DNA of 64,000 bases, from NCBI RefSeq assembly GCF_003991155.1, contig NZ_CP031293.1; one strand, given 5' to 3'. The notes beneath the pieces were generated by a model, which saw only the letters and a program-made list of their open reading frames with translations, was not told the origin of the DNA and did no database searches. A program made the translations under genes and the position numbers. The DNA is from Escherichia coli. Lineage in GTDB: Bacteria > Pseudomonadota > Gammaproteobacteria > Enterobacterales > Enterobacteriaceae. Below are positions 48,081 to 50,367 of this stretch, piece by piece. How positions within the stretch are numbered: position 1 is the stretch's first letter; every line of letters begins with the position of its first letter.

Positions 48081-48092
48081 TTGTCTGAGATC

Positions 48093-48170
48093 AGAGATAC
48101 GGCTAATAACCGTATCTCTTGACAGAGTGAGCATATGCACATAAATTAATCACACGGTTGATAGCCGTAT
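48093..48170 (+). promoter_or_regulatory. Putative promoter and operator of the toxin-antitoxin operon: -35 TTGACA (48119-48124), -10 TAAATT (48142-48147, 17-bp spacer), flanked by two ACGG-N7-CCGTAT palindromic sites
   Basis: Read directly: AGAGATACGG-CTAATAA-CCGTATCTCT (48093-48119, perfect 10-bp arms) abuts the -35. A second site ACGG-TTGATAG-CCGTAT (48154-48170) lies just downstream of the -10. SD AAAGAGG sits 6 nt before the antitoxin ATG. Confidence 0.55.
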
Positions 48171-48223
48171 TATGCATGAGATCGACTCCCTACGATTTCA
48201 TTCAGTTAATCAAAGAGGTCATA

Positions 48224-48535
48224 ATGCCTGGAAAAACAGTCGCTCTACCCGATATCGATAAAACGCTGAAAAATGCGCGGGTTGAACTCAAAACCAGTCC
48301 CGACGCCAAAAACAAACTTCGTGAAGCTGCGCAAGCCGTTGGGGTAGATTTAAGCGCTTTTATTTTGAGCGCAGCTATGGAACGCGCCGAAAGTGTGCTT
48401 GATAACCAACGTCGCCGTGAGCTTTCGAATCAAAGCTGGGAACTGATGAACCAACTCATCGCTGAACCTGCTCAACCGACGCTCGCCCTCAAGGCGTTAA
48501 TGAAAAGGAAAAACAGCGATGGTCGACAAGCATGA
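48224..48535 (+). CDS. Putative type II antitoxin, DUF1778 family (TacA/AtaR/KacA-like), 103 aa
   Basis: MPGKTVALPDIDKTLKNARVELKTSPDAKNKLREAAQAVGVDLSAFILSAAMERAESVLDNQRRRELSNQSWELMNQL... resembles DUF1778 antitoxins. Strong SD; stop overlaps the downstream acetyltransferase start by 17 nt. Start chosen at 48224 rather than the track ORF start 48158, which lies in the promoter. Confidence 0.75.
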   Translation: MPGKTVALPDIDKTLKNARVELKTSPDAKNKLREAAQAVGVDLSAFILSAAMERAESVLDNQRRRELSNQSWELMNQLIAEPAQPTLALKALMKRKNSDGRQA

Positions 48536-49061
48536 AGAGATTACTCTGCCCATAGTCCTCTCCTGTAATTATCAGTCTGATATTATTTATCCTGGGCAAA
48601 AACAGTTTGATTGCGGTAACCCTGTTATCGATAAATTTGTACGCGCATCGCTAAAGAAAAGTGTGCGTAATAGCGACTGTGCTGCTAAAGCTCTTATTGA
48701 CAGACAAAGTGGTGAACTGATTGGCATCTGTACTTTTACGGCATATTCGCTGGAAAAACAACGCGTTTCTGGCGTCCTTCAGGGTTCACAACCTTCAGAG
48801 ATTGGTGTTGTCAGATTAGTCATGTTAGGGGTAGCGCGGAAATATCAAAAGCGGGGCTTTGGTCAGGACCTACTATGTAATTTTTTTGAACATGTAAAAA
48901 TAATTCACCGGGCATTACCAATTAAAGGGGTTTATCTTGATGCTGACCCTGCCGCCATTAACTTTTATACTCGCCTCGGCTTTGTTCAGCTTTCAGCGAG
49001 GCCCAATGTTTTCGGTGCTGTACCGATGTTTTTAGCGATTCAGCATATTCTCGCGGCTTAG
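48519..49061 (+). CDS. Putative GNAT-family acetyltransferase toxin (TacT/AtaT/ItaT/KacT-like), 180 aa
   Basis: N-terminal FDCGNP motif (matches the FDCG(E) motif I recall in AtaT-type toxins) and acetyl-CoA motif RKYQKRGFGQDLL (Q/RxxGxG/A), C-terminal INFYTRLGF. Overlaps and is translationally coupled to the upstream small DUF1778-like gene. Confidence 0.8.
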   Translation: MVDKHEEITLPIVLSCNYQSDIIYPGQKQFDCGNPVIDKFVRASLKKSVRNSDCAAKALIDRQSGELIGICTFTAYSLEKQRVSGVLQGSQPSEIGVVRLVMLGVARKYQKRGFGQDLLCNFFEHVKIIHRALPIKGVYLDADPAAINFYTRLGFVQLSARPNVFGAVPMFLAIQHILAA

Positions 49062-49116
49062 ATTATTATCGCCTCCGGCCAGGGCTAGTTTTGCCTCAGC
49101 CGGGGACTGAGCAGCG

Positions 49117-49398
49117 TTACCACTTTTGTTCAATTGCCCCCGCTTTCAGCAACTCCACATCCTTGCCGTTAATGGTTGCCGTTGCGGCAACGATTGTGGT
49201 CCTTACAGTTGCACAAGATTTTCGCTCAAATTCCGGTTTATAAAGAATTAGAGACGAATTACTGGTAAATGAATCAAATATGTAATCAGTAAAGCTAATA
49301 TTCAGCCGGTTTAAACCGAAAGGCGCGAAGCCAACCGTTTGGTTAATCTCCTTACCGGATGGGCTACGAATGCTGAATGTCACGCGAAGATTGGCCAC
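49117..49398 (-). CDS. Hypothetical orphan ORF (93 aa, GTG start), possibly a displaced C-terminal fragment of the upstream Sel1-repeat gene
   Basis: Open frame begins 5 nt after the Sel1 gene stop in a different frame; in this frame the reading is open back to a stop at 49435-49437 inside the palindrome. I recognise no motif in it. Confidence 0.3.
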   Translation of the reverse strand: MANLRVTFSIRSPSGKEINQTVGFAPFGLNRLNISFTDYIFDSFTSNSSLILYKPEFERKSCATVRTTIVAATATINGKDVELLKAGAIEQKW

Positions 49399-49403
49399 TT
49401 CGC

Positions 49404-49961
49404 CTAATTTATTGGTGGTCCGGAAGACTTTCTGTCAATCATGTCTTTTCGACATGTAGCCAGAAAGTCTTCCGGACCACCATAAATGTGGACACCTTTA
49501 TCAAGATATTCCTTCGCTTTCTTACAATCTACCTCAACATACTGACCATTGGCGTACATCATGCCCAACCTGGACCATGCTAAATTCACACCGTATTGCG
49601 CGGCCTGATTAAATAGTGCATACGCTTTGGCATAATCCACCCGCACCAGCTCACCGTCGTAGTAGATACTCCCCAGCGCTAACGGAGCTTCTCTATCACC
49701 GTGTTTAACGGCTAACTCAAACCATTTAATCGCTTCCTGAACATCAGGTTTGGTATCAAAGCGAGGCTGATAATATTCCCAGCCTAACAGGCTCTGCGCG
49801 TCGACATCTCCCAATTCAGCCATTTTATGCAGTCTATTTATAACATCGGGCGCAGGTTGACCACCGTATATGCTGTCATACAATTCATGCGCTTTCTCGC
49901 TTGCCACCACGCATGGTGAAACTATTAGCATTAAAGAAAATAATATTCTTTTAGTTAACAT
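49404..49961 (-). CDS. Secreted Sel1-repeat (TPR-like) protein, 185 aa, possibly 3'-disrupted
   Basis: Start at ATG 49959-49961 with SD AAAGG; signal peptide MLTKRILFSLMLIVSPCVVAS; three Sel1-type repeats (AQSLLGWEYYQ...AIKWFELAVKHGDREAPLALGSIYYDG...AKAYALFNQAAQYGVNLAWSRLGMMYANGQYVEVDCKKAKEYLDKG). The last 23 codons are encoded by a perfect palindrome. Confidence 0.75.
   Translation of the reverse strand: MLTKRILFSLMLIVSPCVVASEKAHELYDSIYGGQPAPDVINRLHKMAELGDVDAQSLLGWEYYQPRFDTKPDVQEAIKWFELAVKHGDREAPLALGSIYYDGELVRVDYAKAYALFNQAAQYGVNLAWSRLGMMYANGQYVEVDCKKAKEYLDKGVHIYGGPEDFLATCRKDMIDRKSSGPPIN
49413..49482. repeat. 70-bp palindromic element: 22-bp perfect inverted repeat (49413-49434 / 49461-49482) with a 26-nt loop containing a nested ATGTC/GACAT palindrome
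   Basis: TGGTGGTCCGGAAGACTTTCTG ... CAGAAAGTCTTCCGGACCACCA read directly. Lies inside the 3' end of the Sel1 ORF; no adjacent T-tract. Confidence 0.85.
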
Positions 49962-50367
49962 GTATACCTTTATGTTCTCTCTGTCATATATTTCCATAAT
50001 AATTAACCACCAAACATCCATTTAATGAATAAATACAGTGCCATAAAGGCCCAAGTAATAAGCACACATTTAACCTGAAACATTATCATCGATGTCACCA
50101 AATCGTTTATTTAGTGAGATAAAAATAGCATGTTCGCAAGATAAAAAATGCACATAGCAATCAAGAAATAATATTATTACTTTTGATGTAAAACTATTTA
50201 GCTTTAAGAATAATTTTTTCAACATATAGAGCATTCATTTTATGAATGCAAAATAAACATGCCTGACACACAAACTATTCTCCTCTGTAATATTTTCTCA
50301 TTAACACTCTGTTTACCCAACATGCGCTCCGCACTACACTATGTGGGCATTTTTTTAAGAGGTGGTA

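What the first reader, a model, noticed from the sequence alone, without database searches (positions are those of the whole stretch)
48081..50367. About 2.3 kb AT-rich accessory islet inserted between cyoE and yajR
Everything else in the window is contiguous core synteny, but here roughly 2.3 kb separates the cyoE terminator from the yajR start. By eye the segment is markedly more AT-rich than the flanking core genes (counts not computed). It carries the TA pair, an orphan ORF and a secreted Sel1-repeat gene, with no integrase, transposase, tRNA or obvious direct repeats, so the insertion mechanism is unclear; it may be an old, eroded islet.
Basis: partly seen in the sequence, partly recalled or inferred. 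Interest (0 to 1): 0.75.

Follow-up and report, generated by a model that had tools for sequence, protein, structure and literature searches.

The report
Known itaRT toxin–antitoxin accessory islet
The 2.2 kb AT-rich stretch between cyoE and yajR is a real but ordinary accessory islet, found in a quarter of E. coli genomes, that carries the already characterised ItaR–ItaT toxin–antitoxin pair and a broken gene for a secreted Sel1-repeat protein.

Summary
An extra 2.2 kb (48083 to about 50283, 42.3% GC against 51.5% for the window) lies between the cyoE terminator and the yajR promoter. It has no integrase, transposase, tRNA or flanking repeats.

It is accessory: 1369 of 5426 complete E. coli genomes carry it, always at this site. 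K-12 has the 151-bp spacer that about 35 other Enterobacteriaceae species share, so the empty site is ancestral.

The contents are known. The TA pair is itaRT; its toxin is 96% identical to ItaT of E. coli HS (PDB 7BYY), an aminoacyl-tRNA acetyltransferase. BL21(DE3) has the same islet.

The "orphan ORF" and the "Sel1 gene" are two halves of one 311-codon gene, broken here by a 91-bp deletion that looks like a template switch.

The islet is old and eroded. E. albertii, a cryptic Escherichia clade and a Superficieibacter-like genome hold variants at the same site. A fuller form has a second Sel1 gene.

It probably spreads by homologous recombination through the flanking core genes, carrying its own yajR promoter allele. 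Other genera hold unrelated cargo at this spacer, so it is an integrase-free hot spot.

Interest is low.

The parts
48052..48081 (+). cyoE intrinsic terminator (13-bp stem, T-tract). The left junction of the islet lies directly after it, at 48082/48083.
   Evidence: Perfect 13-nt inverted repeat I6. Folds at -20.2 kcal/mol, z = -7.7. The K-12 alignment ends at 48082. The same hairpin plus T-tract is conserved across Enterobacteriaceae.
48083..48223 (+). itaRT control region. It holds a sigma-70-like promoter (TTGACA 48119-48124, 17-nt spacer, TAAATT 48142-48147). Two palindromes of the form ATACGG-N7-CCGTAT bracket it (48097-48115 and 48152-48170). I infer these are ItaR/ItaRT operators.
   Evidence: Best promoter match in the region, 10 of 12. 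Inverted repeats I3 and I7. Both palindromes are conserved in the Superficieibacter-like locus, whose itaR-itaT region is about 80% identical to this one. Repression of this upstream region by ItaRT was shown for the HS allele (PMC6125619). The operator assignment itself is my inference.
48224..48535 (+). itaR, the antitoxin (103 aa, DUF1778/TacA family, ribbon-helix-helix).
   Evidence: RefSeq CDS WP_001353405.1. Matches KacA and AtaR antitoxin chains in the PDB at E = 3.5e-11 and 8.6e-9. The ortholog hits Pfam PF08681 TacA1. It overlaps itaT by 17 nt, as described for itaRT.
48519..49061 (+). itaT, the GNAT toxin (180 aa), an aminoacyl-tRNA N-acetyltransferase.
   Evidence: E = 4.5e-114 to PDB 7BYY, which is ItaT(G115D) of E. 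coli HS. It differs from the wild-type HS protein at 6 of 180 residues. It keeps G115, Y150, V36, I37, F40 and M102, and reading the sequence shows it also keeps K46, K47, K80 and L133. dN/dS against the BL21 allele is 0.14.
49073..49105 (.). GC-rich hairpin between the convergent itaT and Sel1 genes. It may be a shared terminator.
   Evidence: -24.9 kcal/mol on the + strand, z = -1.9. Weak evidence; inferred.
49117..49961 (-). Pseudogene of a secreted protein with Sel1 repeats and a C-terminal beta-sandwich domain (311 aa when intact).
49413..49482 (.). Scar of the inactivating mutation. A 91-bp deletion plus four clustered substitutions made a perfect 22-nt inverted repeat (arms 49413-49434 and 49461-49482).
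   Evidence: Alignment with the nearest intact allele, EC332. Inverted repeat I1 is 100% complementary. The hairpin folds at -53.2 kcal/mol, z = -12.9. Exactly 49 of 5426 genomes share it.
49962..50283 (-). Very AT-rich (about 30% GC) upstream region of the Sel1 gene; the right-hand part of the islet.
   Evidence: GC 0.305 for 49962-50361. It is 74% identical to the region upstream of the extra 499-aa Sel1 gene in Escherichia sp. E4694. That places the loss of that gene in E. coli at about 49965-50002.
50284..50367 (+). yajR promoter region (GTAATATTT motif, TTTACCC, TACACT, Shine-Dalgarno GAGGTGG). It is homologous to the ancestral spacer but is a distinct allele that travels with the islet.
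   Evidence: 72% identical to the K-12 type, but 80-100% identical among all haplotypes that carry the Sel1 gene, including E. albertii and the Superficieibacter-like locus.

Best explanation
The segment 48083 to about 50283 is an integrase-free accessory islet. It sits in the short spacer between the cyoE terminator and the yajR promoter.

Cargo:
1. The itaRT type II toxin-antitoxin operon. [quoted passage not shown] ItaR binds ItaT and neutralises it, and the ItaR-ItaT complex represses the operon's promoter. I infer that the complex acts at the two ATACGG-N7-CCGTAT palindromes.
2. A convergently transcribed gene for a secreted protein with Sel1 repeats and a beta-sandwich domain. In this strain it is a pseudogene.

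History: the islet entered an ancestrally empty 150-bp spacer long ago as a larger unit (itaRT plus two Sel1 genes). It has since been eroded and reshuffled.

Movement: it passes between Escherichia lineages, and probably between genera, by homologous recombination in the conserved cyo and yajR flanks. This explains why it has no mobility genes or target-site duplication, and why a divergent yajR promoter allele is linked to it.

Shown here: identity of the genes, presence/absence distribution, junctions, erosion steps and the mosaic divergence pattern.
Shown elsewhere: ItaT biochemistry, for the HS allele.
Inferred: the operators, recombination as the vehicle, and any stabilising (addiction) role of itaRT.
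For: Identity of itaRT: with papers PMC6125619 and PMC7367177.

Accessory and site-specific: 1369 of 5426 genomes carry it, one place each, all chromosomal apart from megabase-sized records labelled as plasmids.

Empty site is ancestral: the spacer is about 150 bp with the same terminator, motif and promoter layout in about 35 species of more than 10 genera, including K-12 and E. whittamii.

No mobility features.

Old and eroded:
- Escherichia sp. E4694: itaRT + Sel311 + Sel499.
- A Superficieibacter-like genome: itaR + truncated itaT + two Sel1 genes.
- E. albertii and one E. coli strain: Sel311 + a 325-aa protein.

- itaR dS between E. coli and the Superficieibacter-like genome is 0.61-0.67, against 0.72-0.84 for cyoC and cyoE.

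Recombination:
- Between BL21 and E4694, itaRT has dS 0.04 while the adjacent Sel1 gene has dS 0.34 and cyoE 0.12.
- The 86-bp yajR promoter allele is shared by all Sel1-bearing haplotypes and is only 72% identical to the K-12 type.

Hot spot: unrelated cargo occupies the same spacer in Citrobacter, Salmonella arizonae/diarizonae, Superficieibacter, Yokenella, Leclercia and others.
Against: - No recombination-detection analysis on a phylogeny was run, so spread by homologous recombination rests on three or four pairwise comparisons.
- The original insertion event left no readable signature, and its mechanism remains unknown.
- The activity of this particular ItaT allele is untested. It has six substitutions relative to HS, including A151T next to the catalytic Y150 and Q131R in the dimer helix.
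- Operator sites were not defined in the published work.
- A biological role for itaRT is unknown even for the HS allele (PMC6125619).
Confidence: 0.8

Rival explanations
1. The islet is ancestral to Escherichia and inherited vertically, and the K-12-type empty site arose by deletion of the islet.
For: The islet or its variants occur in E. coli, E. albertii, a cryptic clade and a Superficieibacter-like genome at the same site. Divergence between the window and BL21 is about the same in the islet (96-98%) as in the flanks (97.4-97.6%).
Against: The K-12 spacer contains about 47 bp, plus a promoter variant, that are absent from the islet allele. It matches in length (150-152 bp) and layout the spacers of Citrobacter, Enterobacter, Kosakonia, Buttiauxella and other genera. 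A deletion cannot recreate that. The K-12 promoter variant is closest to the Citrobacter type.
Confidence: 0.1
2. It is a recent acquisition from a plasmid or phage, with itaRT acting as the plasmid-type addiction module that came with it.
For: Related GNAT/DUF1778 pairs (71% nt identity) sit on 97-99 kb C. freundii plasmids next to a gene annotated as a baseplate protein. The islet has low GC.
Against: No plasmid carries the islet. The three full-length 'plasmid' hits are 1.2-4.8 Mb records, which I take to be chromosomes. Islet alleles differ by 4% within E. coli and by about 20% between genera, which points to an old origin.
Confidence: 0.05
3. A site-specific mechanism that recognises the cyoE terminator hairpin, such as a hairpin-targeting transposase acting in trans, places cargo at this spacer. 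That would explain the recurrent use of the site in many genera.
For: At least eight unrelated cargos lie between the same terminator and promoter. Several begin within a few bases of the T-tract.
Against: The junction positions differ between cargo types. In the E. albertii type the terminator itself is replaced, and in the Citrobacter Hcp cassettes the GTAATATTT motif is replaced. No shared end sequences and no duplications were found. The pattern fits survival of only those insertions that spare both the terminator and the promoter.
Confidence: 0.05

Closest known systems
ItaR-ItaT (itaRT) of E. coli HS and BL21(DE3): a type II TA with a GNAT toxin that acetylates aminoacyl-tRNA (PMC6125619; PMC7367177; PDB 7BYY)
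   Same: Same gene pair at the same chromosomal site. ItaT is 96% identical and ItaR 97% identical. The genes overlap in the same way. The catalytic, acetyl-CoA-binding and substrate-pocket residues are kept.
   Different: An allele with six substitutions in ItaT (T23I, D121N, Q131R, A151T, T161R, A164V) and three in ItaR. Its closest relatives include strains IAI39 and CE10. Its activity has not been tested.
TacAT (Salmonella), AtaRT (E. coli O157:H7) and KacAT (Klebsiella): GNAT/DUF1778 toxin-antitoxin systems
   Same: Same two-gene architecture and the same folds. PDB sequence matches are E = 1e-5 to 1e-8 for the toxin and about 1e-4 to 1e-11 for the antitoxin.
   Different: Only distantly related in sequence. 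Published substrate preferences differ: Gly or initiator Met for these systems, against Ile, Val and Met for ItaT.
Secreted Sel1-like-repeat proteins: E. coli CFT073 c5321 (4BWR), H. pylori HcpC (1OUV), L. pneumophila LpnE (6DEH)
   Different: It carries an extra C-terminal beta-sandwich domain of about 130 residues with no Pfam family. In the window the gene is a pseudogene that could encode only the repeat part.
IrmA of uropathogenic E. coli (5EK5), an FNIII-like secreted protein (PMC4807369)
Integrase-free chromosomal hot spots for accessory genes between conserved core genes (a general concept from comparative genomics, recalled from my own knowledge)
   Same: Fixed position between two core genes, varied low-GC cargo across strains and genera, and no mobility genes.
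   Different: Very small, at 1-7 kb. The islet allele carries its own version of the neighbouring gene's promoter.

Membership tests
ItaRT / GNAT-DUF1778 type II toxin-antitoxin | The toxin is a GNAT-fold acetyltransferase with the acetyl-CoA loop glycine (G115) and the catalytic tyrosine (Y150). | tested here: met
   96% identity to ItaT (7BYY) over all 180 residues. G115, Y150, V36, I37, F40 and M102 are present; their roles are described in PMC7367177.
ItaRT / GNAT-DUF1778 type II toxin-antitoxin | The antitoxin is a DUF1778/TacA ribbon-helix-helix protein encoded directly upstream and overlapping the toxin gene. | tested here: met
   itaR is 48224-48535 and itaT starts at 48519. itaR matches KacA and AtaR chains. 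RefSeq names it DUF1778 / TacA family. The ortholog hits Pfam PF08681.
ItaRT / GNAT-DUF1778 type II toxin-antitoxin | The toxin arrests growth by acetylating aminoacyl-tRNA, and the antitoxin neutralises it. | not testable with these tools
   Shown experimentally for the HS allele only (PMC6125619, PMC7367177). Purifying selection on this allele (dN/dS 0.14) is indirect support.
ItaRT / GNAT-DUF1778 type II toxin-antitoxin | The TA complex autoregulates the operon by binding operators at its own promoter. | tested here: inconclusive
   Two ATACGG-N7-CCGTAT palindromes bracket the predicted promoter and are conserved in the Superficieibacter-like locus, whose itaR-itaT region is about 80% identical to this one. 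Repression of the 172-bp upstream fragment is published, but the sites were not mapped.
Classical genomic island (integrase-mediated) | An integrase or recombinase gene, insertion at a tRNA/tmRNA gene, and flanking direct repeats. | tested here: not met
   No such ORF. No tRNA. No terminal repeats beyond chance.
Classical genomic island (integrase-mediated) | Atypical base composition and variable presence among strains. | tested here: met
   42.3% GC against 51.5% for the window. Present in 25% of complete genomes.
Sel1-like repeat (SLR) secreted proteins | Tandem Sel1 repeats (Pfam PF08238) behind an N-terminal signal peptide. | tested here: met
   The intact BL21 allele has three Sel1 repeats, E = 4.5e-7 to 7e-3, and strong PDB matches to SLR proteins. 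The hydrophobic N-terminus MLTKRILFSLMLIVSPCVVA is read from the sequence. No signal-peptide predictor was run.
Sel1-like repeat (SLR) secreted proteins | An intact reading frame in the window. | tested here: not met
   A 91-bp deletion shifts the frame after about residue 178.
IrmA-like FNIII proteins | Homology to IrmA, and cytokine binding. | tested here: inconclusive
   [not shown]

The most novel reading that the evidence does not exclude
The islet may be an ancient presence/absence polymorphism shared across species at a family-wide, integrase-free hot spot. On this reading, the itaRT addiction module keeps it from being lost. Its secreted protein (Sel1 repeats plus an IrmA-like beta-sandwich) is a host- or envelope-interaction factor. 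Its repeated decay (a pseudogene here and a partial copy in Shigella sonnei), with swaps of the neighbouring cargo in E. albertii, would reflect changing selection.
Probability: 0.15. Interest if true: 0.4.

Novelty: already known. Interest (0 to 1): 0.15.

Why it matters
It matters little for discovery. The toxin-antitoxin pair has been dissected biochemically and structurally, and the islet is present and annotated in BL21(DE3) and about 1400 other complete genomes.

Three points are modestly useful:
- Annotation: the 93-codon ORF should not be called a gene.
- The islet gives a clean small example of an integrase-free hot spot, in which the islet carries its own allele of the neighbouring promoter.
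- The inactivating mutation is a textbook-quality natural case of a mutation that looks like a template switch, creating a perfect 22-bp hairpin.

Tried and rejected
- **Target-site duplication or terminal repeats.** The only repeats spanning the islet are 11-16 nt imperfect matches of the kind chance gives. Rejected.
- **Plasmid or phage origin.** No true plasmid carries the islet. The phage collection was not searched.
- **Defence-system annotation.** PADLOC gave nothing for ItaR or ItaT, and one sub-threshold match for the Sel1 protein.
- **NCBIfam.** It gave no equivalog for any of the three proteins.
- **Rfam.** The only hit was a plant microRNA family (MIR5229, 44 bits against a gathering score of 80) on the deletion hairpin. 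This is an artefact of a perfect hairpin.
- **Remnants of the 499-aa Sel1 gene in the AT-rich stretch.** None were found. Only that gene's upstream region is retained.
- **Literature on a cyoE-yajR islet or on the phylogroup distribution of itaRT.** Nothing relevant is in the library.
- **Sequence link between the C-terminal domain and IrmA.** None was found.
- **Hairpin-targeted insertion.** I considered a site-specific mechanism aimed at the terminator hairpin and rejected it, because junctions differ between cargo types.
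Full report
**1. What is there**

The window is 100% identical to the chromosome of E. coli 2016C-3878. RefSeq annotates this stretch as follows:
- cyoE, 47149-48039
- a DUF1778 gene, 48224-48535
- a GNAT gene, 48519-49061
- one frameshifted "tetratricopeptide repeat protein" pseudogene on the minus strand, 49117-49961
- yajR, from 50368

K-12 has only 151 bp between cyoE and yajR. A local BLAST of the whole window against the K-12 region shows two collinear blocks: 1-48082 at 98.4% identity and 50358-64000 at 97.6%. Nothing else is missing.

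**2. Composition**

- The islet (48083-50309) is 42.3% GC. The window is 51.5%, cyoE 53.3% and yajR 52.5%.
- GC3 is 0.44 for itaR and 0.37 for itaT, against 0.67 for cyoE and 0.58 for yajR.
- The 400 bp upstream of the Sel1 gene are 30.5% GC.
- Only 0.16% of equal-length windows are as AT-rich. The one other such stretch, about 13.4-15.8 kb, is the core tomB-hha-maa-ylaC region, so composition alone would not have proved foreign origin.

**3. Presence and absence**

- Of 5426 complete E. coli genomes, 1369 (25%) have the islet, and 1367 of them have it essentially complete. There is one copy per genome, at this locus.
- The remaining genomes match only the flanks.
- Carriers include BL21(DE3) derivatives, IAI39, CE10 and several non-O157 STEC.
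- K-12, O157:H7, ST131 and the type strain lack it.
- The "plasmid" hits are records of 1.2-4.8 Mb, which I take to be chromosomes.

**4. Identity of the cargo**

*The toxin-antitoxin pair.* The 180-aa GNAT protein matches PDB 7BYY at E = 4.5e-114. That entry is ItaT(G115D) of E. coli HS (PMC7367177).

ItaT is the toxin of the itaRT module. It acetylates aminoacyl-tRNA: Ile according to PMC6125619, and Ile, Val and Met according to PMC7367177. ItaR neutralises it, and the ItaR-ItaT complex represses the operon. The authors note a virtually identical pair in BL21(DE3).

The window allele differs from the wild-type HS protein at six residues. It keeps G115, Y150, the V36/I37/F40/M102 pocket, the basic tRNA-binding residues and L133. 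dN/dS against the BL21 allele is 0.14, so it is probably active.

*The control region.* Upstream lies a good promoter match (TTGACA, 17-nt spacer, TAAATT). It is bracketed by two ATACGG-N7-CCGTAT palindromes. Both are conserved in the Superficieibacter-like locus, whose itaR-itaT region is about 80% identical to this one, while the sequence around them drifts. I infer that these are the operators; the papers did not map them.

**5. The "orphan ORF" and the "Sel1 gene" are one gene**

BL21 and EC332 have an intact 936-bp gene. The protein has these parts:
- a hydrophobic N-terminal leader
- three Pfam Sel1 repeats
- a C-terminal domain of about 130 residues with no family

In the window the frame is broken by a 91-bp deletion. 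Compared with the nearest intact allele (EC332, 99.7% identical), the only other changes at the site are four substitutions. Together with the deletion they make 49413-49434 the exact reverse complement of 49461-49482. The resulting hairpin folds at -53 kcal/mol, z = -12.9.

This pattern looks like a quasi-palindrome template switch. That reading comes from my own knowledge of the mutation class, not from a test. Exactly 49 genomes share the allele.

**6. Junctions and the ancestral state**

I fetched the yajR neighbourhood from 80 species-representative genomes and located cyoE, yajR and the islet genes in each.

In about 35 species of more than ten genera the spacer is 149-153 bp with one layout:
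- terminator hairpin and T-tract
- about 25 variable bases
- a GTAATATTTnTTAAnnAA motif
- TTTACCC ... TACACT
- GAGGTGGTA ATG

K-12, E. whittamii and Escherichia sp. E1V33 have this form, so the empty site is ancestral.

In the window the terminator and T-tract end at 48082. The GTAATATTT motif reappears at about 50286, so the inserted DNA is 48083 to about 50283. About 30 bp of the ancestral variable spacer are missing.

The 86 bp to the right are homologous to the ancestral promoter but only 72% identical to the K-12 type. They are 80-100% identical among all haplotypes that carry the Sel1 gene, across species.

**7. Age, erosion and movement**

The contexts are:

| Genome | Content between cyoE and yajR |
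|---|---|
| Escherichia sp. E4694 | itaR, itaT, Sel311, Sel499 |
| Metagenomic contig nearest Superficieibacter (yajR 96% to that genus) | itaR, a truncated itaT, two Sel1 genes |
| E. albertii and E. coli R32_14_1F | Sel311 plus an unrelated 325-aa secreted protein, with a different cyoE terminator |
| Escherichia sp. MOD1-EC7003 | Sel311 plus an M20-type amidohydrolase fragment |

The E. coli form lacks Sel499 but keeps that gene's upstream region.

Synonymous divergence:
- itaR between E. coli and the Superficieibacter-like genome: 0.61-0.67.
- cyoC and cyoE for the same pair: 0.72-0.84. The islet is therefore roughly as old as the split between those genera.
- Between BL21 and E4694: itaRT 0.04, the adjacent Sel1 gene 0.34, cyoE 0.12. 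The islet is therefore a recombinational mosaic.

There are no mobility genes, no tRNA and no flanking repeats, and a promoter allele is linked to the islet. The most economical vehicle is homologous recombination through the conserved flanks. How the first insertion happened cannot be read from the sequence.

**8. The site is a hot spot**

Other genera hold unrelated cargo in the same spacer:
- Citrobacter: an Hcp/TssD protein, an STM2901-family protein and a small ORF
- Salmonella arizonae and diarizonae: a 352-374-aa ORF
- Superficieibacter sp. 1612_C1: a 6.8-kb stretch that appears, from its ORF sequences, to encode sugar-utilisation genes
- UBA3516: a 1271-aa protein
- Yokenella: a lipoprotein
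- a Leclercia MAG: a peptide with a double-glycine leader

Junction positions differ between cargo types. This argues against a site-specific enzyme. It fits survival of only those insertions that spare both the terminator and the promoter.

**9. Verdict**

The content, however, is the published itaRT module plus a decayed Sel1-repeat gene, in a region already present in BL21(DE3). Nothing here is a new kind of system. Interest is low.

Noticed in passing
window 49413-49482: A 91-bp deletion plus four clustered substitutions turn the site into a perfect 22-nt inverted repeat (hairpin -53 kcal/mol, z = -12.9). The pattern looks like a template-switch (quasi-palindrome) mutation. Exactly 49 of 5426 complete genomes share it. 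It also gives a spurious sub-threshold Rfam hit to plant MIR5229.
   Followed up: yes
window 50284-50367: The yajR promoter next to the islet is a distinct allele. It is 72% identical to the K-12 type but 80-100% identical among all Sel1-bearing haplotypes, including E. albertii and a Superficieibacter-like genome. Islet carriers may therefore express yajR differently.
   Followed up: partly
L016, L017, L022, L024, L029 (Citrobacter spp.), cyoE-yajR spacer: 1.0-1.6 kb cassettes in the same spacer. Three of the five (L016, L017, L029) encode an Hcp/TssD type VI tube protein, an STM2901-family protein and a small acidic ORF, like an orphan effector-immunity set; the two shorter ones (L022, L024) lack the Hcp gene.
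   Followed up: partly
L036 (Leclercia MAG), cyoE-yajR spacer, ORF at gap positions 243-575: A 110-aa glycine- and serine-rich peptide with a double-glycine leader (MKELSLNEMQYISGG), which looks like a class II microcin. It has no family hit.
   Followed up: no
L006/L007 (E. albertii) 6048-7025; L004 (E. coli R32_14_1F) 2396-3373: A 325-aa protein with a signal peptide and no Pfam, NCBIfam or PADLOC family takes the place of itaRT next to the Sel1 gene. In this variant the cyoE terminator is also replaced.
   Followed up: partly
L008 (Escherichia sp. E4694) 3491-6829 compared with L003 (BL21): The islet is a mosaic. itaRT is nearly identical between the two genomes (dS 0.04), but the adjacent Sel1 gene is much older (dS 0.34). 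E4694 also has an extra 499-aa Sel1 paralogue that E. coli has lost.
   Followed up: yes
L003 (BL21) about 3290-3310, equivalent to window about 50283: BL21 has a 9-bp tandem duplication (TCTGTAATA) directly upstream of the conserved GTAATATTT motif of the yajR promoter region.
   Followed up: no
window 13400-15800: The core tomB-hha-maa-ylaC stretch is as AT-rich (42.3% GC) as the islet. Low GC alone does not mark accessory DNA in this window.
   Followed up: yes
window 58759; window 4774-4903: K-12 has about 126 bp more than the window in the yajO-dxs spacer. Separately, window 4774-4903 is 82% identical to a K-12 segment between yajD and tsx, about 64 kb away in K-12 (430180-430309), which suggests a dispersed repeat element.
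   Followed up: no
L095 (C. freundii plasmid pRHBSTW-00697_3) 1468-2308: An itaRT-like GNAT/DUF1778 pair (71% nt identity) lies on a 99-kb plasmid next to a gene annotated as a baseplate protein. The record may be a phage-plasmid.
   Followed up: no
[not shown]
   Followed up: partly
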